From assembly GCF_003790525.1 (NCBI RefSeq), contig NZ_CP033635.1: DNA of 64,000 nucleotides, one strand, 5' to 3'. The translations under genes were made by a program, and so were the position numbers. Source of the stretch: Escherichia coli. Its GTDB lineage: Bacteria > Pseudomonadota > Gammaproteobacteria > Enterobacterales > Enterobacteriaceae. This document shows, one piece after another, positions 20,700 to 29,107 of the stretch; positions within the stretch are counted from its first letter, which is position 1; every line of letters begins with the position of its first letter. The notes under the pieces were generated by a model, which saw only the letters and a program-made list of their open reading frames with translations, had not been told where the DNA came from and searched no databases.

Positions 20700-20859
20700 C
20701 CACTCTTTGACTCCCTTCACATTCGTCATCACACCACCTGCTGAATGCAAAAATTTCGTTGCTGTGCGGCAAACTTTTTTCCTGTTTTGTGCCGCTTTTC
20801 TCCTGAATACTCGTTCTCAGAACAACTGGATCGTTTAAACATCAGACAGGAGATTTACC

Positions 20860-21528
20860 ATGACGCAATCCATTTTTCAGGCTCAACCCTTTGAATTACC
20901 TTTTGATCCGCGCACAACTGCACTGGTCATGATCGACATGCAGCGTGACTTTGTCGAAGCAGGGGGCTTCGGTGAGGCACTGGGCAATGATGTTTCACTG
21001 GTACGCACGGCTATCGCACCATGTACAGAGGTGCTGGCAGCCGCACGTCAAAAAGGAATTATGGTTATTCATACTCGTGAAGGCCATCGTGCAGACTTAA
21101 GCGACTGCCCGCCAGCCAAACTGACGCGCGGCGGAAAAACCTTTATTGGTGAACCAGGACCGATGGGACGCATTCTGGTCAGAGGTGAAGCAGGTCATGA
21201 CATCATTCCTGAACTGTACCCGGTGGCAGGCGAACCGGTGATTGATAAGCCTGGCAAAGGCGCGTTTTATCAAACCGACTTACATCTGATTTTGCAAAAC
21301 CACGGTATCAAGACGCTGATAGTTTGTGGTGTTACAACCGAAGTTTGCGTAACCACCACCGTGCGCGAAGCAAATGATCGTGGCTATGAATGCATTATCC
21401 CGGAAGATTGTGTCGGCTCCTATTTCCCGGAATTCCAGAAATACGCCCTCGAGATGATCAAAGCACAAGGTGCCATTTTCGGTTGGGTTACTGATTCCAA
21501 AGCCATTATTGCAGGCCTGGAAGGCTAA
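20860..21528 (+). CDS. Isochorismatase-like cysteine amidohydrolase (RutB / biuret-hydrolase / N-carbamoylsarcosine-amidase type)
   Basis: 222 aa. The catalytic triad context is present: ALVMIDMQRDF (Asp), KPGKGAF (Lys), LIVCGVTTEVCV (Cys). The C-terminal GAIFGWVTD resembles the RutB FFGWVSD. AGGAG lies 8 nt upstream. Confidence 0.85.
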   Translation: MTQSIFQAQPFELPFDPRTTALVMIDMQRDFVEAGGFGEALGNDVSLVRTAIAPCTEVLAAARQKGIMVIHTREGHRADLSDCPPAKLTRGGKTFIGEPGPMGRILVRGEAGHDIIPELYPVAGEPVIDKPGKGAFYQTDLHLILQNHGIKTLIVCGVTTEVCVTTTVREANDRGYECIIPEDCVGSYFPEFQKYALEMIKAQGAIFGWVTDSKAIIAGLEG

Positions 21529-21533
21529 CACCG

Positions 21534-22394
21534 ATGGTACAGGTTACGCTTTGCGCATCGTCGTTGGGATATCTTTTCCCGCAGAATGAAACGCAAGATT
21601 TACGTCTACATAGCGCTTTTAAACATGCGGTAAATCTGTATTCAGACGCGGGAACATTCATCACTCTGTTGTGTGCGCAAACGTATCTGAATCTCCCTGA
21701 TGCAGCCAGAGTCTGGCTACCTGAATGTTGGGACTGGCGAAGAGAGATTGCCCATTCAGATCCCATTCAGTTAACCCCAGGCTTACTGCGGACACCTCGA
21801 TTTTGTGTGGCGCTCGAAAACGCAACGCTCTGGCAGTCGCCATTTGTGGGGGGAATGCTGACACTTGAGGCATTCCCTTTGGTTTTCCAGCACTACCCAA
21901 CGATGGCATCGCAACGGCTTTTATTTTGTCTGGAACATAACGTTCAAAGCACATTGCACCTGCCGGATAGTCTCACGCACCAGGGATTAGCGATTATGGA
22001 GCATCCAGATGCGCTGGAACGCCAGGTGCCACAACTGATCGGCTTTGGTAAAGGCTTAACGCCCGATGGAGATGACTATTTGTTGGGCTATCTGGCAGCA
22101 CTCTGGTTATGGCAACTCCCTGCACCACTTGCCGATCATCAATACCGGTTGCAGCAGGTAATTGATCAACATGCGCACAACACCACGGATATCAGTCGTC
22201 ATTATCTGGAGCGTGCGCTTCAGGGACATTTTTCAGAACCGATTTGCCAGTTACTCGCACAACTGGTTGGGAGTGCATCGGCAATGACAATCGCATCCTG
22301 TGCAGAACAGGTCATGCAATTTGGCGCAACGTCAGGAGTAGATTGCCTTGCAGGAATGCTGCATGGCTTTCGAACCCTGAACACCATAAATTGA
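21534..22394 (+). CDS. DUF2877-family protein (YlbF-like)
   Basis: 286 aa with the GKGLTPDGDDYLLGYLAAL and TTDISRHYL motifs I associate with YlbF/DUF2877. It starts 5 nt after the hydrolase stop. Confidence 0.75.
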   Translation: MVQVTLCASSLGYLFPQNETQDLRLHSAFKHAVNLYSDAGTFITLLCAQTYLNLPDAARVWLPECWDWRREIAHSDPIQLTPGLLRTPRFCVALENATLWQSPFVGGMLTLEAFPLVFQHYPTMASQRLLFCLEHNVQSTLHLPDSLTHQGLAIMEHPDALERQVPQLIGFGKGLTPDGDDYLLGYLAALWLWQLPAPLADHQYRLQQVIDQHAHNTTDISRHYLERALQGHFSEPICQLLAQLVGSASAMTIASCAEQVMQFGATSGVDCLAGMLHGFRTLNTIN

Positions 22395-22488
22395 TTTCAA
22401 CCTTTTCTCCCGTAGCCCGTTTATGGGGCTACACGGGGATGCTTTGCCCGAATTTTGCTATCGGGCGGAATGAAACAGGCGTAACAGC

Positions 22489-24048
22489 ATGAAAGTTAAA
22501 TATAAAGTTTTCAGTAATCTTTATCAGGACTCAGTTTCTCTGATGCAGATTTCCGCGCAAATCAGCAAGTTGCCCGGTATTCAACAGGCCTCGGTCGTCA
22601 TGGGAACACCCAATAATCTCGAGCAATTGAGCGATGCGGGTCTGGGTAACGAAATCAACGCCAGTCCCAATGATTTAGTGATTGCAGTCATGGGTGAAGA
22701 AGATATTTGCAATGAAGCACTGGTACTGGCCCAGCAACGTCTGACCAGCAAACCCGATGATGAAACGGATAGTGGCATTAAAACACCGGAAAAGGTCAGC
22801 CTGGAAATGGCACTGGAAGCCGAGCCCGAAGCCAACCTGGCACTCATTTCTGTACCGGGAGACTACGCCGCCGCCGAAGCAATTAAAGCGTTAAACCTCG
22901 GAATGAACGTGATGATGTTCAGCGATAACGTCAGTATCGTGCAGGAAAAATCCATCAAAACGCTTGCCCGAGAACGTCAGCGCATCGTAATGGGACCTGA
23001 CTGTGGAACCGCCATTGTTAACGGCATTCCGTTAGGCTTCGCTAATGTGGTGAAACGCGGAGCAATTGGTGTTATTGGCGCGTCAGGCACCGGGCTACAG
23101 GAAGTGACTTGCCGAATCGACCAGCTCGGAGCGGGTATTTCTCAGGCGTTGGGAACAGGCGGACATGATCTCAGTGAAGAGATTGGTGGAATATCGATGC
23201 TCTTCGCTTTAGATGCGCTGGCGCAAGACGATGAAACTCGCGTGATTGTGCTTATTTCAAAACCGCCTTCACCGATCGTTGCCCGGACTATTCTGGAGCG
23301 TGCCGAGGCTTGTGGAAAACCCGTGGTGGTGAATTTCCTCGGTGCGAATCCGCATGATCTGGCACGTCCCAATATCACCGCGGCCACCACACTTGCCAGC
23401 GCCGCAAATATCGCCGTGGCGTTACTGAATGATCAACCACTTCCGACTATCGAGACCGAAATTTCCTGCGACGATCTCACAATGTTACAAAACGCCTGCC
23501 AGCGCCTGCCAGCCCATCGCCAGGCGATACGCGGTGTTTTCGCCGGAGGAACCTTCTGCTACGAAGCGCAACTTATCTGCCAACAAAAGGGATTCAGCGC
23601 AGCCTCCAATACGCCAGTTGCGGGTAATCGTGCTCTGGCAAATATCTGGCAAAGCGAAGATCACACGTTGATCGATATGGGCGACGATGATTTCACCCGT
23701 GGCAAACCGCATCCAATGATCGACCCGACTCTGCGCAATCAACGTCTGCTCAACGAACTCAACGACTCACACACTGCCGTCGTGTTATTCGACCTGGTAC
23801 TTGGTTATGGCGCTTCCACGACGCCTGCCAGCGAATTACTGGACCAACTTTCACACATCGACATGAATAACGCACCGTTGCTGATTGCGCACGTTTGCGG
23901 AACGGAAGCTGATCCGCAAATACGCAGTCAGCAGATAAGCGCACTACAAAATGCAGGGGTCATCATCGCCAGCAGCAATGCACAGGCGGCGTTATGGGCC
24001 AGCACCGTTGCACAGACTCAGTTGCAGAAAAAGGGGCTAAACGCATGA
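22489..24048 (+). CDS. FdrA-family protein (succinyl-CoA-synthetase-alpha-like, CoA-ligase fold)
   Basis: 519 aa with long collinear similarity to my recollection of E. coli FdrA: QDSVSLMQIS, NVMMFSDNV, MGPDCGT, IGVIGASGTGLQE, GDDDFTRGKPHPMIDPTLRNQ. Confidence 0.88.
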   Translation: MKVKYKVFSNLYQDSVSLMQISAQISKLPGIQQASVVMGTPNNLEQLSDAGLGNEINASPNDLVIAVMGEEDICNEALVLAQQRLTSKPDDETDSGIKTPEKVSLEMALEAEPEANLALISVPGDYAAAEAIKALNLGMNVMMFSDNVSIVQEKSIKTLARERQRIVMGPDCGTAIVNGIPLGFANVVKRGAIGVIGASGTGLQEVTCRIDQLGAGISQALGTGGHDLSEEIGGISMLFALDALAQDDETRVIVLISKPPSPIVARTILERAEACGKPVVVNFLGANPHDLARPNITAATTLASAANIAVALLNDQPLPTIETEISCDDLTMLQNACQRLPAHRQAIRGVFAGGTFCYEAQLICQQKGFSAASNTPVAGNRALANIWQSEDHTLIDMGDDDFTRGKPHPMIDPTLRNQRLLNELNDSHTAVVLFDLVLGYGASTTPASELLDQLSHIDMNNAPLLIAHVCGTEADPQIRSQQISALQNAGVIIASSNAQAALWASTVAQTQLQKKGLNA

Positions 24049-25469
24049 ATACCTTATTTAATCAGCCTTTGAAGGTTGTGAACGCGGGACTACACAGTTT
24101 TGCTGACAATATTCAACATGCCGGGGGAAGCGCAATTGCACTCAACTGGCAGCCACCAGCACAAGGCGATATTGACGCTGGATTGGATCTGGCATCGTTG
24201 CTACGTCATCCCCTGGTAGAAAATGCCAACCAAATCGCCATGACACGTTATCTCGAAGCACAGCCCGTGCTGGTGGATGTCATGCTCGCTAAAGAGGCCA
24301 TTCCAGAAATGGCTGAACAAAAACGTATTTTGCACTCTGGCCCGCCGATTGCCTGGGAAGAGATGTGTGGTCCGGTAAAAGGGGCGATTATTGGTGCCAT
24401 GCTGTACGAAGGTTGGGCCACCAGCCAGCAAGACGCTGAAAACCAAATAAACGCAGGCGAAATCGACCTTGCCCCTTGTCATCATTATCACGCGGTTGGC
24501 CCAATGGCAGGCATCATCAGCCCGTCGATGCCGTTATGGGTGGTAGAAAACAAAACCAACGGCCACCGTACTTTTAGCAATTTCAATGAAGGTCTGGGTA
24601 AGGTTCTCCGTTTTGGCGCCAATAACGATGAAGTTCTCAATCGTCTGGCCTGGATGCGCGATGAACTGGCGCCGGCAATGAAAGCAGCAATCGCACAACA
24701 CGGCGAGCTGGAACTCAAGCCATTAATGGCGCAGGCGCTGCATATGGGGGATGAAGTTCATAACCGCAATGCTGCCGCTACCGGTTTGCTGATTAAGCGC
24801 CTGCTCCCGGCATTGCTGGCCTGCTCTCTTCCACAGGAACATATCCAGCGCGTCGTGGCATTTATCACCGGTAACGATCACTTCTTCCTCAATCTTTCGA
24901 TGGCCGCCTGTAAAGCAATGATGGATGCCGCCGCCAATGTACCGTTCAGTTCAATGGTTACGGTGATGGCGCGTAACGGGGTGAATTTTGGTATTCGGCT
25001 TTCCGGTACTGGCGATCGCTGGTTCCAGGCTCCTGCCAATGCCGTTGAAGGTCTGTTCTTCCCCGGATTTGGCGTCGACGATGCCGCTGCTGACCTGGGT
25101 GATAGCGCAATTACTGAAACCGCAGGTGTGGGTGGCTTCGCGATGGCGTCGTCTCCGGCGATCGTCAAATTTGTGGGAGGCACCCCTGCCGATGCCACCA
25201 ATAACAGCCGTCGGATGCAAGCCGTCACCCTCGGCGGTAACCCCGCATTTACACTTCCAGCCCTCAATTTTGCCCCCACCGCAGCAGGGATTGATGCGCG
25301 TAAAGTGACCGATCGCGGCATTTTACCGGTCATCAATACGGGTATCGCCCACAAACAAGCGGGGGTCGGGCAAATTGGTGCCGGGATCACCACTGCGCCG
25401 ATGGCCTGTTTTGTCGCCGCTGTACGTGCACTGGCGGAGATCGTCGCAAAGGAGAACCATCATGGTTAA
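24045..25469 (+). CDS. DUF1116-family protein (YlbE-like)
   Basis: The ATG at 24045 overlaps the FdrA-like TGA (an ATGA junction), giving about 474 aa starting MNTLFNQPLKVVNAGL... It is the conserved partner of FdrA in fdrA-ylbE-ylbF-ybcF clusters. The ORF-track start at 23994 is probably an over-extension. Confidence 0.78.
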   Translation: MNTLFNQPLKVVNAGLHSFADNIQHAGGSAIALNWQPPAQGDIDAGLDLASLLRHPLVENANQIAMTRYLEAQPVLVDVMLAKEAIPEMAEQKRILHSGPPIAWEEMCGPVKGAIIGAMLYEGWATSQQDAENQINAGEIDLAPCHHYHAVGPMAGIISPSMPLWVVENKTNGHRTFSNFNEGLGKVLRFGANNDEVLNRLAWMRDELAPAMKAAIAQHGELELKPLMAQALHMGDEVHNRNAAATGLLIKRLLPALLACSLPQEHIQRVVAFITGNDHFFLNLSMAACKAMMDAAANVPFSSMVTVMARNGVNFGIRLSGTGDRWFQAPANAVEGLFFPGFGVDDAAADLGDSAITETAGVGGFAMASSPAIVKFVGGTPADATNNSRRMQAVTLGGNPAFTLPALNFAPTAAGIDARKVTDRGILPVINTGIAHKQAGVGQIGAGITTAPMACFVAAVRALAEIVAKENHHG

Positions 25470-26418
25470 GCCACTGGCTGTCGTCGCGGTTGGCGGCAAT
25501 GCGCTCATTCAGGACGAGCAACGCAATAGTATTCCCGATCAATATGTTGCAGTGATGGAAAGCGTGCAGCATATCGTTGATATGGTTGAAGCCGGATGGG
25601 ACCTGGTGCTAACCCACGGTAATGGCCCGCAGGTGGGCTTTATTCTGCGCCGCTCTGAACTCGCCAGTAACGAAGTTTCTCCGGTTCCACTTGATTACGC
25701 CGTGGGTGATACACAAGGTGCAATTGGCTACATGTTCCAGAAAGCACTGCATAACGAATTGGCTCGCCGTGGCATAAACAAACCGGTAATTGCCCTGGTG
25801 ACACAAACGCGAGTCAGCCCACATGACGATGCTTTCGCCAGCCCCAGTAAACCAATTGGCGCGTTTCTCGATGAAGCAACGGCCCAACAACGCCAACAAC
25901 AACTCGGCTGGACGCTGATGGAGGACGCCGGGCGTGGTTGGCGGCGTACAGTTCCCTCTCCTGCCCCACTGGAAGTTATTGAGCACGACACCATCGCTCA
26001 CCTGGTGCGCCAGGGATATCTGGTTATTGCCTGCGGCGGCGGCGGTATTCCGGTGGTGCGAGACGGACAACAACTGAAAGGTGTAGAAGCCGTGATCGAT
26101 AAAGATCTGGCCTCCGCGCTGCTCGCCAGTCAGTTAGGCGCAGATCTGCTGGTGATCCCCACCGGTGTAGAAAAAGTGGCGATTAACTTTGGTACACCAC
26201 AACAACAGTGGCTCGACGCTATCAGCGTTGCCGAAGCGCAAACGCTGTTGCGGGAAGGTCAGTTTGGTGTCGGCAGTATGCAACCCAAAGTGGAAGCCAT
26301 TGTTGATTTCATCAATGCCAGCCAGCAACAAGGCAAACAGGCCAGCGGCCTGATTACTTCACCGCAAACCATAAAAGCAGCCCTGGCGCATCAGAGCGGT
26401 ACATGGATAACCCTTTAA
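25462..26418 (+). CDS. Carbamate kinase
   Basis: The ATG at 25462 follows GGAGA (25451-25455) and overlaps the upstream stop by 8 nt, giving 318 aa. Carries AVVAVGGNAL and THGNGPQVG, the carbamate-kinase signature motifs, plus CGGGGIPV. Confidence 0.92.
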   Translation: MVKPLAVVAVGGNALIQDEQRNSIPDQYVAVMESVQHIVDMVEAGWDLVLTHGNGPQVGFILRRSELASNEVSPVPLDYAVGDTQGAIGYMFQKALHNELARRGINKPVIALVTQTRVSPHDDAFASPSKPIGAFLDEATAQQRQQQLGWTLMEDAGRGWRRTVPSPAPLEVIEHDTIAHLVRQGYLVIACGGGGIPVVRDGQQLKGVEAVIDKDLASALLASQLGADLLVIPTGVEKVAINFGTPQQQWLDAISVAEAQTLLREGQFGVGSMQPKVEAIVDFINASQQQGKQASGLITSPQTIKAALAHQSGTWITL

Positions 26419-26434
26419 TTCTCTGGAGAACACA

Positions 26435-26824
26435 ATGACTACAACGCTTTTAGCCGTTAACGGAACGCTGATGCGCGGCCTGGAACTCAACCCAAATATG
26501 CAAAAAGCGGGCGGTATTTTTGTCCGTGAAGACCGAACTGACGCCCATTACCGGTTGTGGAGTATTAATGATCGCCATCCGGGAATGATTCGCGTGAATG
26601 AAGGAGGAACACACGTCGACGTAGAAATTTGGCAATTACCGCTGGCCAGTTTTGCCGCTCTGTTAATGAGCGAACCCGCTGGGCTGGCAATTGGCAAAAT
26701 CAAACTTGCCGATGGTAGCGAAGTGCTGGGCGTACTGGCAGAAAACTGGCTGACCGAAGGCCAACGGGAAATTACAGAACTGGGTAGCTGGCGCAAATAC
26801 ACCGGGCATTTTCATACTGTGTAA
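26435..26824 (+). CDS. Stand-alone allophanate-hydrolase C-terminal-like / gamma-glutamylcyclotransferase-fold domain protein
   Basis: 129 aa. LAVNGTLMRGLELN...YRLW...PGMIRV..GG..VDVEIWQLP...F..L....P.GLAIGKIKLADGSEVLGVL...ELGSWRKY parallels the C-terminal domain of allophanate hydrolases (from memory). No amidase-signature domain is present. Confidence 0.6.
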   Translation: MTTTLLAVNGTLMRGLELNPNMQKAGGIFVREDRTDAHYRLWSINDRHPGMIRVNEGGTHVDVEIWQLPLASFAALLMSEPAGLAIGKIKLADGSEVLGVLAENWLTEGQREITELGSWRKYTGHFHTV

Positions 26825-26849
26825 CGCGCATTTATAAAGGGAACATACT

Positions 26850-28073
26850 ATGCGTAAAAAAGAAGAGAATCTGAATACGGCATCAGGATTGCGTATTGCC
26901 ATGATTTTGCTGGGTATTGCCGTCACACCTGTGCTGTTGTCATCCTCAAGCCTCGGCAATCAACTTTCCAGCGGCAGTTTAATTAGCGTCGTATTGTTAG
27001 GCGGCGTCATTCTGACCTTACTTTCAGCCATCACCATTAGCGTGGGAGAAAAAGCCCGCCTACCAACGTATGGCATTGTGAAATATTCGTTTGGCGAAAA
27101 AGGGGCCATCGCCATTAACATTTTGATGGCGATAAGTCTGTTCGGCTGGATTGCCGTTACCGCCAATATGTTTGGTCATTCGGTACATGACTTACTGGCT
27201 CAACATGGACTGGAAGTTCCACTGGCACTGTTAGTGGCGGCTGGCTGTGTCATTTTTGTCGCCTCTACGGCATTTGGCTTTGCCGTTCTGGGAAAAATTG
27301 CCCAGGTTGCCGTGCCGGTTATCGCGCTGGTGCTGTGTTACATCCTCTATGTGGCAACCCATACCGAAGTGGCAGTACCAGCGGCGATTGTGGAGATGAA
27401 TACAGGTGTCGCCGTTTCCACCGTTGTTGGCACCATTATTGTGCTGGTTGCCACACTGCCTGATTTCGGTAGTTTTGTGCATAACCGCAAACATGCGCTG
27501 ATTGCCGCAGGCGTGACGTTTCTGGTTGCCTACCCTCTGCTCTACTGGGCGGGTGCAACGCCGAGCGCCATTAGTGGTCAGGGATCTTTACTGGGTGCGA
27601 TGGCGGTATTCGGTGCGGTTCTGCCTGCGGCGCTGTTGTTGATTTTCGCCTGCGTCACCGGTAACGCGGGCAATATGTTCCAGGGCACGCTGGTGGTTTC
27701 CACACTGCTTACCCGCTTTCCCAAATGGCAGATTACCGTGGCGCTGGGTATCCTTTCCGCCATCGTAGGCAGTATGGATATTATGGCGTGGTTTATTCCG
27801 TTTCTGCTGTTCCTGGGTATCGCCACGCCACCCGTTGCCGGAATTTATATCGCTGACTTTTTCTTTTATCGCCGTAATGGCTATCAAGAGTCAGTGTTAG
27901 CCCAGGAGTCACAGATTAAAGTGCTGACATTCGCAGCATGGATCATAGGCGCAGCGGTTGGCTTTATGACCGTAAAAGGCTTATTCACCCTGACGACGAT
28001 CCCTTCGGTAGACTCGATTCTGGTGGCATGTATCGCTTATGCGATTCTCAGTCGGGCAAGTCAACACCGCTAA
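26850..28073 (+). CDS. NCS1-family permease, CodB (cytosine/purine/uracil/allantoin)-like
   Basis: 407 aa with about 12 TM helices. YSFGEKGA...LFGWIAVTANMFG and PPVAGIYIADFFFYRR align with the CodB SFGVKGS...QVGWFGVGVAMF and PPVGGVIIADYLMNRR (from memory). Confidence 0.8.
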   Translation: MRKKEENLNTASGLRIAMILLGIAVTPVLLSSSSLGNQLSSGSLISVVLLGGVILTLLSAITISVGEKARLPTYGIVKYSFGEKGAIAINILMAISLFGWIAVTANMFGHSVHDLLAQHGLEVPLALLVAAGCVIFVASTAFGFAVLGKIAQVAVPVIALVLCYILYVATHTEVAVPAAIVEMNTGVAVSTVVGTIIVLVATLPDFGSFVHNRKHALIAAGVTFLVAYPLLYWAGATPSAISGQGSLLGAMAVFGAVLPAALLLIFACVTGNAGNMFQGTLVVSTLLTRFPKWQITVALGILSAIVGSMDIMAWFIPFLLFLGIATPPVAGIYIADFFFYRRNGYQESVLAQESQIKVLTFAAWIIGAAVGFMTVKGLFTLTTIPSVDSILVACIAYAILSRASQHR

Positions 28074-28101
28074 TTCCTGGGTATACTCAGGCAATGATTA
28101 C

Positions 28102-28125
28102 GGCTGAATCTGGAGAGATTCAGCC
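28102..28125 (+). other. 10-bp perfect stem-loop between the permease and LysR genes
   Basis: GGCTGAATCT (28102-28111), loop GGAG, AGATTCAGCC (28116-28125). Only a weak U-tract (ACTTTACC) follows. It ends 25 nt before the LysR ATG. Confidence 0.5.
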
Positions 28126-28150
28126 ACTTTACCACTGACCAGGAAGCCTT

Positions 28151-29047
28151 ATGTTCATCTCAGACGAAACGCTTCGTGTTATTCATCTGGTCGCCAGACA
28201 CCAGAGCATTACCACCGCAGCCGAGCAGTTAAATAAAGTCCCTTCCGCCATCAGTTACACCATCAAGAAAGCGGAAGAGAGCCTGGGCGTTGAACTGTTC
28301 ATTCGTAAGGGACGCTATATTGAATTATCGCCAGCGGGAAGTTACTTCATCGAACATAGCAAAACTATTCTTGGCGACCTGGAAGCATTAAAGCGCAACA
28401 CAGTGCTGATTCACGATGGTATTGAGCGTGAACTGACAATTGCGGTAAACAATATTATTCCTGGTGATTTGCTGGTGGCATTTATTCGAGATTTTGAACG
28501 GCAATTCACATCAACAACACTGACGGTAGATCTTGAGGTATACAACGGCTGCTGGGATGCGCTGTACAGTAAGCGTGCCGATCTGGTCTACGGTGCTCCT
28601 CATGCAGTGCCAAGCAGTGAAGGCATCATTAGCGAACCGGTCGGACAAATGGAATGGGATTTTGTCGTCAGCCCACTCCACCCACTGGCAGCGAAGCGGC
28701 ATCCATTAGAAAACAGTGAATTGCGTCATTATCCAGCGGTTTGTATCCGCGATACCTCCGTTAACTTCCCCCCGATGCAAGCCTGGTTGTTGGAAGGACA
28801 AAAACCCATTTTTGTTCCTGACTTCGCTACGGCAATCGCCTTAATAGAACAAAACGTCGGTATTGGTTATATTCCACATCATCTGGCATTGCCGTTATTG
28901 AACAGCGGTAAATTGCTTAAAAAGCCAATGCGCGAACATAAACACGCCACCAAGTTATTTCTTGCCGCTCGTTCCGATGGTATGGGCAAAGCCTGTCAGT
29001 GGTGCATAGAATATTTAAGAAATCCGCAATTAATTTTCTGTTCCTGA
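28151..29047 (+). CDS. LysR-family transcriptional regulator
   Basis: 298 aa with an N-terminal LysR HTH (LRVIHLVARHQSITTAAEQLNKVPSAISYTIKKAEESLGVELF) and a C-terminal substrate-binding domain. Confidence 0.9.
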   Translation: MFISDETLRVIHLVARHQSITTAAEQLNKVPSAISYTIKKAEESLGVELFIRKGRYIELSPAGSYFIEHSKTILGDLEALKRNTVLIHDGIERELTIAVNNIIPGDLLVAFIRDFERQFTSTTLTVDLEVYNGCWDALYSKRADLVYGAPHAVPSSEGIISEPVGQMEWDFVVSPLHPLAAKRHPLENSELRHYPAVCIRDTSVNFPPMQAWLLEGQKPIFVPDFATAIALIEQNVGIGYIPHHLALPLLNSGKLLKKPMREHKHATKLFLAARSDGMGKACQWCIEYLRNPQLIFCS

Positions 29048-29076
29048 AGATCCACATCATACCTGGCATACATAGC

Positions 29077-29107
29077 AAAATGGCTTCCGGTGTTGGAAGC
29101 CATTATT
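29077..29107. terminator. Stem-loop terminator between the convergent LysR gene and metE
   Basis: ATGGCTTCC (29080-29088), a 6-nt loop, GGAAGCCAT (29095-29103). It is flanked by AAAA on the left (a U-run for minus-strand metE) and TTATTG on the right. Confidence 0.65.

What the first reader, a model, noticed from the sequence alone, without database searches (positions are those of the whole stretch)
26435..26824. Free-standing allophanate-hydrolase C-terminal-like domain with no amidase domain
Seen: a 129-aa ORF sits between the carbamate kinase and the permease. Its sequence is LAVNGTLMRGLELN...AHYRLW...PGMIRVNEGGTHVDVEIWQLPLASFAALL...GLAIGKIKLADGSEVLGVL...ELGSWRKY. From memory, this is collinear with the C-terminal, GGCT-like domain that is normally fused to the amidase-signature domain of allophanate hydrolases (AtzF / DUR1,2 type).

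Inference: a solo copy next to a carbamoyl-transfer complex suggests one of two roles. It may handle an unstable N-carboxy or carbamate intermediate, or it may act as a docking subunit. The function of this domain is itself poorly defined, so a genetically separated version offers a clean handle on it.
Basis: partly seen in the sequence, partly recalled or inferred. Interest (0 to 1): 0.55.

Follow-up and report, generated by a model that had tools for sequence, protein, structure and literature searches.

The report
Stand-alone allophanate-hydrolase C-domain protein (c4763)
This small E. coli protein really is a free-standing copy of the tail domain of allophanate hydrolase, which was already shown by a 2015 crystal structure; its function is still unknown, and comparative genomics ties it to a mobile operon that probably breaks down triuret (a urate-oxidation product) while making ATP.

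Summary
ORF 26435-26824 (+) encodes a 129-aa protein that matches Pfam AH_C (allophanate hydrolase C-terminal domain) end to end at E=1.6e-41 and has no amidase domain.

It is not new. The window is E. coli, and the protein is 100% identical to PDB 5C5Z ("c4763, a uropathogenic E. coli-specific protein", released 2015). RefSeq already calls it "allophanate hydrolase-related protein". Its function remains unknown.

What I add:
- The neighbouring "cysteine hydrolase" carries the exact residue signature of triuret hydrolase TrtA, not biuret hydrolase.
- In 80 species loci the solo domain sits next to a TrtA-type hydrolase in at least 69. In 58 it also sits next to the FdrA/DUF1116/carbamate-kinase module.
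- It occurs fused to carbamate kinase, AllG, BiuH-type hydrolases and a cupin.
- In related clusters it is replaced, mutually exclusively, by a full-length allophanate hydrolase.
- It belongs to an "NGTLMRG" subfamily. This subfamily lacks the His found in amidase-fused C domains but keeps the GGCT-superfamily Glu.

Best reading (about 0.35): it removes allophanate, by decarboxylation, in a phosphorolytic route from triuret through carboxybiuret that yields ATP. Interest is moderate.

The parts
26435..26824 (+). Solo AH_C-domain protein (c4763 / WP_000214035.1), 129 aa, 'NGTLMRG' subfamily, Glu64 conserved
   Evidence: 100% identical to PDB 5C5Z; motif subfamilies; fold; Glu64 aligns with the GGACT-family Glu of YtfP.
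20860..21528 (+). Isochorismatase-like cysteine hydrolase with triuret hydrolase (TrtA) signature
   Evidence: Pfam Isochorismatase. NCBIfam BiuH 280 bits, below the cut-off of 370. Best PDB hit is TrtA 6XIX at 271 bits, against BiuH at 237. All 13 signature sites, DFFNEKKAECYQI, equal TrtA. 58.7% identity to TrtA and 52.0% to BiuH.
21534..22394 (+). AllH-like (DUF2877) subunit of an oxamate-carbamoyltransferase-like complex
   Evidence: Pfam AllH E=4e-27. It is the least conserved gene of the operon.
22489..24048 (+). FdrA/AllF-like subunit
   Evidence: NCBIfam FdrA 496 bits, above the cut-off of 433. 40% identity to E. coli FdrA according to PMC12928451.
24045..25469 (+). AllG-like (DUF1116) subunit; its start overlaps the FdrA stop
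   Evidence: Pfam AllG E=9e-99. RefSeq coordinates.
25462..26418 (+). Catabolic-type carbamate kinase; overlaps the AllG stop by 8 nt
   Evidence: NCBIfam arcC 364 bits, above the cut-off of 358. RefSeq start.
26850..28073 (+). NCS1 (cytosine-permease-like) transporter, the presumed substrate importer
   Evidence: Pfam Transp_cyt_pur. Co-occurs in 42 of 58 type I loci and is replaced by a 530-aa permease in 13.
28151..29047 (+). LysR-family regulator (PunR/AllS-like)
   Evidence: Conserved downstream of the permease in enterobacterial loci.

Best explanation
c4763 is a stand-alone, dimeric GGCT-fold protein of the allophanate hydrolase C-domain family. It works as the last enzyme of a seven-gene catabolic operon, which is followed on the same strand by a LysR-family regulator gene.

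Proposed pathway:
1. The NCS1 permease imports triuret.
2. The TrtA-type cysteine hydrolase converts triuret to 1-carboxybiuret plus NH3.
3. The AllH/FdrA/AllG paralogue of oxamate carbamoyltransferase cleaves the terminal ureido group with phosphate. This gives carbamoyl phosphate plus allophanate.
4. Carbamate kinase turns carbamoyl phosphate into ATP, NH3 and CO2.
5. c4763 removes the other, unstable N-carboxy product, allophanate. It does this by protonating the nitrogen through Glu64 and releasing CO2, which yields urea.

Step 5 would pull the unfavourable phosphorolysis forward.

What is shown: the domain identity, the fold, the TrtA signature of the neighbour, the conserved linkage, the fusions and the mutually exclusive replacement by full-length allophanate hydrolase.

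What is inferred: the substrate of the AllHFG-like enzyme, the substrate of c4763, and the chemistry. The broader claim, that c4763 catalytically processes an N-carboxylated ureide intermediate of triuret breakdown, I put at about 0.6. The specific allophanate claim I put at 0.35.
For: Identity and fold.

Neighbour is TrtA-type:
- Its best PDB hit is 6XIX.
- It carries the catalytic triad plus all six residues that discriminate TrtA from BiuH, as defined in PMC7948467.

Linkage:
- Of 80 species-representative loci, 58 carry the AllFG/CK module, and 56 of those have a TrtA-type hydrolase.
- CK is followed directly by AH_C (AH_C starts about 950-1,040 nt after the CK start) in almost all of them.
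- Reverse test in metagenomes: 22 of 22 loci with AllG >=90% identical, and 8 of 10 with 70-90%, have the solo domain.

The module's substrate is carboxybiuret. The same module (AllG 79% identical) is also found fed by a bona fide cyanuric acid hydrolase instead of TrtA (L111; NCBIfam 579 bits, above the cut-off of 360). The products of the two feeders converge on 1-carboxybiuret (PMC7948467).

Allophanate is an intermediate. Five clusters of TrtA-type hydrolase plus FdrA/AllG/CK-type genes (AllH-like detected in three) have no solo AH_C (L125, L126, L131, L132, L155). They carry a full-length allophanate hydrolase instead (NCBIfam 805 bits, above the cut-off of 511; the L131 copy was scanned). 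No locus has both.

Rosetta-stone fusions of the same NGTLM-type domain are seen with CK, AllG, BiuH-type hydrolases (whose product is allophanate) and Cupin_7.

Catalytic potential:
- Glu64 is conserved at 97-100% in every AH_C group.
- It aligns with the Glu of the GGACT-family 'GEVY' motif.
- The His of amidase-fused C domains (KlAH His492) is Leu12 here. This fits a substrate with a neutral carbamoyl group instead of a second carboxylate, but that link is inference.

Operon unity: the genes overlap or lie close together, and the whole cluster moves as a unit on 82 conjugative plasmids.
Against: - There is no biochemical evidence for any step in E. coli.
- The IS-flanked cyanuric-acid version of the module (L111) has neither a solo AH_C nor an allophanate hydrolase. 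The function is therefore dispensable, or supplied from elsewhere in that genome.
- Urea is a dead end in urease-negative E. coli, so half the nitrogen would be wasted. A second phosphorolysis of allophanate would be more economical and would need no AH_C.
- Eleven loci have the solo domain with TrtA, BiuH and a cupin but no AllFG/CK module. Five further full-length loci show no partner at all.
- Published work on AtzF (Balotra et al. 2015, recalled from memory) found no physiologically relevant catalysis by the allophanate hydrolase C domain.
- The hhalign match to YtfP is weak (probability 21%).
Confidence: 0.35

Rival explanations
1. c4763 is a carboxybiuret decarboxylase, a functional analogue of TrtB. 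It converts the TrtA product 1-carboxybiuret to biuret plus CO2. Biuret is then the substrate of the AllHFG-like enzyme (giving carbamoyl phosphate plus urea) or, in type II loci, of BiuH.
For: - The domain co-varies with TrtA rather than with the AllFG/CK module. It is absent when TrtA is replaced (L111) and present with TrtA in loci that lack the module.
- In allophanate hydrolase, the C domain is proposed to act on the N-carboxy product of its partner amidohydrolase. By analogy, the TrtA product would be the substrate here.
- Carboxybiuret decays spontaneously with a half-life of about 20 min. An accelerator would therefore be useful but dispensable.
- AH_C-BiuH fusions fit supplying BiuH with biuret.
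Against: - Biuret is a dead end in E. coli, which has no BiuH in the cluster, and it inhibits TrtA.
- This reading does not explain why full-length allophanate hydrolase takes the place of the solo domain in otherwise equivalent clusters.
- The cyanuric acid hydrolase cluster makes the same carboxybiuret yet lacks the domain.
Confidence: 0.2
2. c4763 is a non-catalytic adaptor. It binds labile N-carboxy intermediates or bridges TrtA, the AllHFG-like complex and CK, so that intermediates are channelled and shielded from solvent decarboxylation. This is the role proposed for the C domain of AtzF.
For: - Fusions to three different partners (CK, AllG and isochorismatase-like cysteine hydrolases) suggest physical association.
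- The K. lactis C domain mediates dimerisation: the G559E/G572E mutant is monomeric. Gly572 corresponds to the conserved Gly87.
- The His of amidase-fused C domains is absent.
- Balotra et al. 2015 proposed scaffolding for AtzF (recalled from memory).
Against: - About 48 invariant positions persist across Gamma- and Betaproteobacteria at 62-88% identity. They include many buried-pocket-type polar residues (N9, T11, R14, R31, D36, Y39, R40, H48, R53, E64, E80, K88, E103).
- The superfamily's catalytic Glu is retained.
- The domain also occurs with quite different partners (Cupin_7, DUF3810, flavodoxin-like, GGT-like).
Confidence: 0.15
3. c4763 has the same chemistry as the allophanate hydrolase C domain, that is, decarboxylation of N-carboxycarbamate. 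In this reading the cysteine hydrolase (or another enzyme) deamidates allophanate, so that cysteine hydrolase plus c4763 form a split allophanate hydrolase. Alternatively, c4763 simply speeds breakdown of the carbamate released by CK.
For: - Pfam and NCBIfam place it in the allophanate hydrolase C-domain family.
- Its architecture parallels amidase-AH_C, as seen in the IHL-AH_C fusions.
- Its gene follows CK invariably, and CK-AH_C fusions exist.
Against: - The His that is 92% conserved in amidase-fused C domains is Leu in 97% of orthologues.
- TrtA is described as ultraspecific for triuret.
- Type II loci have no CK, and therefore no carbamate source.
- Carbamate decomposes very fast without help (general chemistry).
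Confidence: 0.12
4. c4763 is a genuine gamma-glutamyl-type cyclotransferase or another GGCT-fold activity, unrelated to ureide chemistry and only carried along in the island.
For: It has the GGCT fold, a 'xGTL' motif and the conserved Glu. Database names include GGCT/AIG2-like.
Against: - Pfam GGACT scores below threshold.
- Fold and profile searches rank allophanate hydrolase C domains well above GGCT/GGACT.
- Linkage to TrtA-type hydrolases is tight and spans several phyla.
Confidence: 0.05

Closest known systems
c4763 of uropathogenic E. coli CFT073 (PDB 5C5Z; Kim et al. 2015, Acta Cryst F 71:1042)
   Same: It is the same protein, 100% identical over 129 residues. That paper, recalled from memory and cited in PMC7558591, already reported a dimeric GGCT-like fold most similar to the K. 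lactis allophanate hydrolase C domain, and suggested a link to urea metabolism.
   Different: Nothing differs in the molecule. New here are the TrtA identity of the neighbour, the two conserved operon architectures, the fusions, the replacement by full-length allophanate hydrolase, and the NGTLM versus GxH subfamily split.
C-terminal domain of allophanate hydrolase (K. lactis DUR1,2 / KlAH 4ISS, G. bethesdensis 4GYR, AtzF; Pfam PF21986)
   Same: - Same Pfam family and fold, collinear over the whole domain.
- Shared conserved core: V8, G10, G15, Y39, P49, G58, E64, P81, G87, G99, W119 and R120.
   Different: - It is not fused to an amidase-signature domain.
- Only about 27% identical.
- The motif G-A-H (KlAH His492) is G-T-L here.
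- It has its own invariant polar set: R31, D36, H48, E80 and K88.
- It partners with cysteine hydrolases and a carbamoyltransferase/kinase module.
GGCT / GGACT / AIG2-like cyclotransferases (e.g. E. coli YtfP, human GGACT)
   Same: Same fold. The N-terminal 'x-G-S/T-L' motif and a Glu on the central strand align.
   Different: - Below the Pfam GGACT threshold.
- TM-score only 0.5-0.6.
- No gamma-glutamyl context in the neighbourhood.
Triuret/biuret pathway TrtA-TrtB-BiuH-AtzF (Herbaspirillum; PMC7948467)
   Same: It shares the TrtA-type hydrolase, and in type II loci BiuH as well. The same unstable intermediates arise: carboxybiuret and allophanate.
   Different: The E. coli operon has no BiuH, no AtzF amidase and no TrtB annotated. 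It has an OXTCase-like complex, a carbamate kinase and the solo AH_C instead.
Oxamate carbamoyltransferase AllFGH + carbamate kinase AllK of E. coli (PMC11326118)
   Same: Same three subunit families plus a catabolic carbamate kinase. The same logic is presumed: phosphorolysis of an N-acyl urea to carbamoyl phosphate, then ATP.
   Different: - These are paralogues (about 40-46% identity).
- They are fed by TrtA or cyanuric acid hydrolase rather than by the allantoin pathway.
- They are accompanied by AH_C.

Membership tests
Allophanate hydrolase C-terminal domain (Pfam PF21986 AH_C) | Sequence matches the family HMM above the gathering score over the full domain | tested here: met
   141.6 bits against a cut-off of 27; profile positions 2-122 of 123.
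Allophanate hydrolase C-terminal domain (Pfam PF21986 AH_C) | GGCT-like fold closest to solved allophanate hydrolase C domains | tested here: met
   Foldseek: 4ISS and 5I8I at E~1e-9 and TM 0.75, ahead of GGCT/GGACT. The crystal structure 5C5Z exists.
Allophanate hydrolase (AtzF / DUR1,2 type enzyme) | Amidase-signature domain N-terminal to the C domain | tested here: not met
   The ORF is 129 aa, with an in-frame stop 8 codons upstream and carbamate kinase directly upstream. It reaches 99-105 bits against NCBIfam cut-offs of 487-511.
Allophanate hydrolase C domain as N-carboxycarbamate decarboxylase (Fan et al. 2013, recalled from memory) | Conserved His of the V-G-A-H motif (KlAH His492) | tested here: not met
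   His is present in 92% of 13 amidase-fused domains. The position is Leu12 in 97% of 116 orthologues. The numbering was verified through Gly559 and Gly572.
Allophanate hydrolase C domain as N-carboxycarbamate decarboxylase | Catalytic activity on N-carboxycarbamate | not testable with these tools
   This needs an enzyme assay.
Allophanate hydrolase C domain as dimerisation element | Interface glycines (KlAH Gly559, Gly572) | tested here: inconclusive
   Gly572 corresponds to the conserved Gly87. Gly559 corresponds to Ala74. 5C5Z has two chains.
GGACT/AIG2-like (Pfam PF06094) | HMM match above the gathering score | tested here: not met
   20.0 bits against a cut-off of 22.8.
GGCT-fold superfamily | N-terminal YGSL-type motif and catalytic Glu | tested here: met
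   In hhalign against YtfP, VNGTL aligns with VYGSL, and Glu64 aligns with the Glu of 'GEVY' (low probability of 21%). Glu64 is conserved at 97-100%.
Triuret hydrolase TrtA (neighbouring gene 20860-21528) | Asp/Lys/Cys triad plus TrtA-type residues at F35, N41, A134, E160, Y187 and I205 | tested here: met
   The signature DFFNEKKAECYQI is identical to 6XIX; BiuH has DFYYEKKSDCTQV.
Biuret hydrolase BiuH (neighbouring gene) | NCBIfam equivalog cut-off and BiuH-type residues | tested here: not met
   280 bits, below the cut-off of 370. All six discriminating residues are TrtA-type.
Oxamate carbamoyltransferase AllFGH | Three subunits of the AllF (FdrA), AllG (DUF1116) and AllH (DUF2877) families, encoded together with a carbamate kinase | tested here: met
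   Pfam and NCBIfam hits.
Oxamate carbamoyltransferase AllFGH | Oxalurate as substrate / orthology to E. coli allFGH | tested here: inconclusive
   Only 40-46% identity to FdrA and YahG. The genomic feeders are TrtA or cyanuric acid hydrolase, not allantoin genes. Activity was not testable.
Carboxybiuret decarboxylase TrtB | Sequence family of TrtB | not tested
   The defining paper (Aukema et al. 2020) is not held, and no reference sequence was available.

The most novel reading that the evidence does not exclude
The island encodes a previously undescribed, ATP-yielding phosphorolytic route for 1-carboxybiuret, which arises from triuret via TrtA or from cyanuric acid via cyanuric acid hydrolase.

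- An oxamate-carbamoyltransferase paralogue makes carbamoyl phosphate plus allophanate.
- The NGTLM-type solo AH_C protein is a new enzyme, an allophanate (N-carboxyurea) decarboxylase. It would settle whether allophanate hydrolase C domains are catalytic.
- In uropathogenic and other extraintestinal E. coli, the operon would let a urease-negative bacterium harvest nitrogen and ATP from a urate-oxidation product that is present in urine.
Probability: 0.3. Interest if true: 0.7.

Novelty: new variant of a known kind. Interest (0 to 1): 0.45.

Why it matters
The bare observation is already in the literature, through the 5C5Z structure and the RefSeq name, so it earns little on its own.

Three things make it matter:
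1. The role of the allophanate hydrolase C domain, catalytic or scaffold, is disputed. This conserved, soluble, already crystallised stand-alone relative now has a defined set of candidate substrates (allophanate, carboxybiuret) and partners (TrtA, AllG, CK) to test.
2. The operon suggests that FdrA/DUF1116/DUF2877 complexes are general phosphorylases of N-acyl ureas. The route for triuret and cyanuric acid would then conserve energy as ATP.
3. The cluster is in about 29% of complete E. coli genomes and on conjugative plasmids, and triuret occurs in human urine. A nutritional role in extraintestinal E. coli is therefore plausible and easy to test.

Tried and rejected
- **BiuH assignment of the neighbouring hydrolase** (best NCBIfam hit): rejected. 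It scores below the cut-off and carries the full TrtA signature.
- **Barbiturase reading of the AtzD-family enzyme in L111**: rejected. It passes the cyanuric acid hydrolase equivalog cut-off and scores 582 bits against 329 for barbiturase.
- **Apparent long fusions in L044 and L055 (about 465 aa), and an AllG part in the L075 open frame**: rejected as shadow reading frames of GC-rich DNA. Only CK-AH_C (P0125, L075), AllG-AH_C (L066), Cupin_7-AH_C (P0128, L080) and IHL-AH_C (P0132, P0136, P0202) are accepted.
- **Broken or pseudogenised allophanate hydrolase**: rejected, because an in-frame stop lies upstream and no amidase remnant is present.
- **Generic GGCT**: rejected.
- **Promoter/terminator scan**: no more hits than in shuffled sequence, so uninformative.
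- **Papers wanted but not held**: Fan 2013, Kim 2015, Balotra 2015, Lin 2013 and Aukema 2020. Their content is cited from memory only.
- **Searches for CFT073 locus tags c4758-c4764**: nothing functional found.
Full report
**1. Observation**

The ORF at 26435-26824 (+) starts with ATG and ends with TAA. A GGAG lies 6 nt before the start. The ORF begins 16 nt after the stop of the carbamate kinase gene and ends 25 nt before the permease gene.

The frame is open for only 8 codons upstream, so this is not the remnant of a longer gene.

Pfam AH_C (PF21986, allophanate hydrolase C-terminal domain) matches at E=1.6e-41 over profile positions 2-122 of 123. The generic GGACT model stays below its threshold. 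NCBIfam allophanate hydrolase models align only with their last ~125 positions.

**2. It is already known as an object**

The window is E. coli. The 8.4-kb stretch 20700-29100 is 100% identical to strain SMS-3-5 and is present in 1559 of 5426 complete E. coli genomes. It lies between ysgA and metE.

RefSeq names the ORF "allophanate hydrolase-related protein". PDB 5C5Z, [quoted passage not shown], released 2015-08-19, is identical over all 129 residues.

The paper (Kim et al. 2015, Acta Cryst F) is not held. It is cited in PMC7558591 as describing a homologue of allophanate hydrolase. From memory, it reports a dimeric GGCT-like fold closest to the K. lactis allophanate hydrolase C domain and speculates about urea use. 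The function was not determined.

**3. Fold and family**

An AF2 model (pLDDT 76) finds 5C5Z first. The C domains of K. lactis allophanate hydrolase and urea amidolyase come next (E~1e-9, TM 0.75). Generic GGCT-fold proteins follow only after that: PH0828, GGCT, GGACT and YkqA (E 1e-4 to 1e-2, TM 0.5-0.6).

**4. The family splits in two**

I aligned 116 close orthologues, 33 diverse solo proteins, 50 other architectures and 13 amidase-fused allophanate hydrolases.

- A common core is conserved in all groups: V8, G10, G15, L18, Y39, P49, G58, E64, P81, L84, G87, L91, G94, G99, I113 and W119.
- At positions 9-13, amidase-fused domains read (V/C)-G-(A/L)-H-(L/M) in 12 of 13 cases.
- The E. coli-type proteins read N-G-T-L-M in 112 of 116 cases. 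So do all fusions to partners other than an amidase.

The His is KlAH His492. I checked the numbering: residues 559 and 572 of the same numbering are the two glycines named in PMC5770610. From memory, His492 is the residue Fan et al. 2013 implicated in C-domain catalysis. I could not re-read that paper.

Glu64 is conserved at 97-100% in every group. In a profile alignment with E. coli YtfP it pairs with the Glu of the GGACT-family "GEVY" motif, and VNGTL pairs with VYGSL (weak, probability 21%). The catalytic role of that Glu in GGCT (Glu98) and GGACT (Glu82) is established knowledge.

The solo protein therefore keeps the superfamily's catalytic Glu but not the allophanate-hydrolase-specific His. 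It is a paralogous subfamily, not a detached allophanate hydrolase tail.

**5. The neighbours**

The operon on the + strand comprises:
- a cysteine hydrolase (20860-21528)
- an AllH-like gene (21534-22394)
- an FdrA/AllF-like gene (22489-24048)
- an AllG-like gene (24045-25469)
- a carbamate kinase (25462-26418)
- c4763
- an NCS1 permease (26850-28073)
- a LysR regulator (28151-29047)

The FdrA/AllG and AllG/CK gene pairs overlap. AllFGH is the oxamate (oxamic) carbamoyltransferase of E. coli (PMC11326118). The copies here are paralogues, at 40-46% identity to FdrA and YahG (PMC12928451).

The cysteine hydrolase scores below the NCBIfam BiuH cut-off (280 against 370). Its best solved relative is triuret hydrolase TrtA (6XIX, 271 bits), ahead of BiuH (237 bits).

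PMC7948467 defines the catalytic triad and six second-shell residues that separate TrtA from BiuH. At all 13 sites I scored, the window protein equals TrtA (DFFNEKKAECYQI), whereas BiuH has DFYYEKKSDCTQV. Overall identity is 58.7% to TrtA and 52.0% to BiuH. TrtA converts triuret to 1-carboxybiuret plus NH3. Carboxybiuret decays to biuret with a half-life of about 20 min.

**6. Conservation of linkage**

A scan of one genome per species found at least 585 species with a relative, and the best 80 loci were analysed. All of these are stand-alone ORFs of about 130 aa, apart from a few true fusions. They fall into these classes:

| Class | Loci | Notes |
|---|---|---|
| Type I: AllFG/CK module present | 58 | 56 have a TrtA-type hydrolase; AH_C directly follows CK; NCS1 permease in 42; an unannotated 530-aa multi-TM permease in 13 |
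| Type II: no module | 11 | Verrucomicrobiota, Chloroflexota and others |
| TrtA only | 2 | |
| No partner found | 9 | 4 are on short contigs |

Type II loci contain TrtA, the 530-aa permease, a bona fide BiuH (413 bits, above the cut-off of 370), a 119-aa Cupin_7 protein and AH_C. A CHASE histidine kinase and a sigma-54 regulator lie upstream. There is no amidase and no AllFG/CK module.

For the reverse test I used the window's AllG to pull 80 metagenomic loci. Among loci with enough downstream sequence, the solo domain was present as follows:

| AllG identity to window | Loci with solo AH_C |
|---|---|
| >=90% | 22 of 22 |
| 70-90% | 8 of 10 |
| 60-70% | 4 of 9 |
| 50-60% | 0 of 13 (these also lack CK) |

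**7. The informative exceptions**

(a) L111 and L112 (AllG 79% identical) have AllH-FdrA-AllG-CK-LysR but no TrtA, no AH_C and no NCS1 permease. A cyanuric acid hydrolase and a xanthine/uracil-family permease sit upstream instead. The hydrolase scores 579 bits on the NCBIfam equivalog (cut-off 360) and 582 bits against 6BUM, compared with 329 for barbiturase. The whole unit lies between IS1 and IS66 transposases.

Cyanuric acid hydrolase and TrtA make the same product, 1-carboxybiuret (PMC7948467). Two unrelated feeders converging on one metabolite is the best available evidence that carboxybiuret is the substrate of this AllHFG-like enzyme.

(b) L125, L126, L131, L132 and L155 (AllG 60-64% identical) have a TrtA-type hydrolase with FdrA/AllG/CK-type genes (AllH-like detected in three of them; L155 ends inside AllG). 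Four of the five also have the 530-aa permease. All lack a solo AH_C. Each carries a full-length allophanate hydrolase instead (Amidase plus a GAH-type AH_C; 805 bits against a cut-off of 511 for the L131 copy).

No locus has both. Solo AH_C and allophanate hydrolase thus behave as alternates, which points to allophanate, or what derives from it, as the shared target.

(c) In L113 and L143, AH_C follows AllG directly without a CK.

**8. Fusions**

The NGTLM-type domain is found fused in frame to:
- carbamate kinase (P0125, L075)
- AllG (L066)
- BiuH-type hydrolases (P0132, P0136, P0202)
- Cupin_7 (P0128, L080)
- a GGT-like fragment, DUF3810 and a flavodoxin-like domain

**9. Mechanistic synthesis**

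- Shown: identity, fold, neighbours, linkage, fusions and mutual exclusivity with allophanate hydrolase.
- Inferred: triuret is imported and deamidated to carboxybiuret. The OXTCase paralogue phosphorolyses its terminal ureido group to carbamoyl phosphate plus allophanate, by analogy with oxalurate giving carbamoyl phosphate plus oxamate. CK makes ATP.

The remaining N-carboxy product, allophanate, is either hydrolysed by allophanate hydrolase (some taxa) or handled by the solo AH_C (E. coli and most others).

I favour decarboxylation to urea, with Glu64 acting as general acid on the nitrogen. This is the same type of reaction proposed for allophanate hydrolase C domains on N-carboxycarbamate. 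It removes a product of an unfavourable phosphorolysis, which explains the adjacency and fusion to AllG and CK. It also explains the BiuH fusions, because BiuH makes allophanate. Finally, the His-to-Leu change fits a neutral carbamoyl group in place of a second carboxylate.

Weak points:
- Urea is wasted in urease-negative E. coli.
- The cyanuric acid version lacks the domain.
- There is no biochemistry.

Rivals are carboxybiuret decarboxylation (a TrtB analogue), a non-catalytic channelling adaptor (as proposed for AtzF), a split allophanate hydrolase or carbamate breakdown, and unrelated GGCT chemistry.

**10. Novelty**

In the held literature, only PMC12625717 notes that trtA/biuH genes lie next to allFGHK in comammox bacteria and ammonia-oxidising archaea. 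It interprets allFGHK as a separate oxalurate pathway. No held paper proposes a phosphorolytic carboxybiuret route or a role for c4763 in triuret catabolism.

The protein itself and its resemblance to the allophanate hydrolase C domain are already known. The subfamily distinction and the pathway context are a new variant of known kinds.

**11. Verdict**

Interest is moderate (0.45). It rests on a concrete, cheap-to-test hypothesis for an unassigned, crystallised protein and for a mobile E. coli operon.

Noticed in passing
window 20860-29047; plasmid hits H11-H18: The whole eight-gene cluster is also carried as a unit, at about 95% identity, on 82 conjugative plasmids (78 E. coli, 4 Klebsiella). 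There are 129 plasmid copies among complete E. coli genomes.
   Followed up: partly
L111 315-13148 (also L112): An IS1/IS66-flanked module holds a DcuC-like transporter, a cyanuric acid hydrolase, a xanthine/uracil permease, AllH-FdrA-AllG-CK and a LysR regulator. It looks like a transposable cyanuric-acid version of the operon, without TrtA or AH_C.
   Followed up: yes
L047 10398-11996; L074 1067-2761; 30 loci in all: A conserved multi-TM protein of about 530 aa, with no Pfam or NCBIfam match, takes the place of the NCS1 permease in many clusters. It is probably an undescribed transporter family for triuret-like ureides.
   Followed up: partly
window 21534-22394; L007, L012, L013, L030, L032-L034, L105: The AllH-like (DUF2877) gene is by far the least conserved of the operon, at 24-59% identity against 57-92% for the others. 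It is missing between TrtA and FdrA in several species. This raises doubt that it is an obligatory subunit.
   Followed up: no
P0202 (644 aa): This triple-domain protein combines AH_C, a BiuH-type hydrolase and a TrtA-like domain. In the TrtA-like domain the catalytic Asp and Cys are Asn and Gly, so it is probably a pseudo-enzyme domain.
   Followed up: no
L046 9608-9967; L051, L056, L060, L074 and others; P0128; L080 1270-2205: A 119-aa Cupin_7 (ChrR-like) protein always sits directly upstream of AH_C in the module-less (type II) loci and is sometimes fused to it. It is a candidate second decarboxylase or hydrolase of the triuret pathway.
   Followed up: partly
window 26435-26824; database names: Many database entries, including the molecule name of PDB 5C5Z, call the solo protein 'glutamyl-tRNA amidotransferase'. 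The name is carried over from the amidase half of allophanate hydrolase, which this protein lacks.
   Followed up: yes
L079 8868-11363; L071 8920-10375: In a cyanobacterial locus and a Chthoniobacter locus the solo domain sits inside or beside ABC-transporter genes. L079 has a Bmp/PnrA-type binding protein; L071 only an ABC ATPase. No TrtA or AllFG lies within 10 kb. The Bmp/PnrA family is the one reported next to trtA/biuH in nitrifiers.
   Followed up: no
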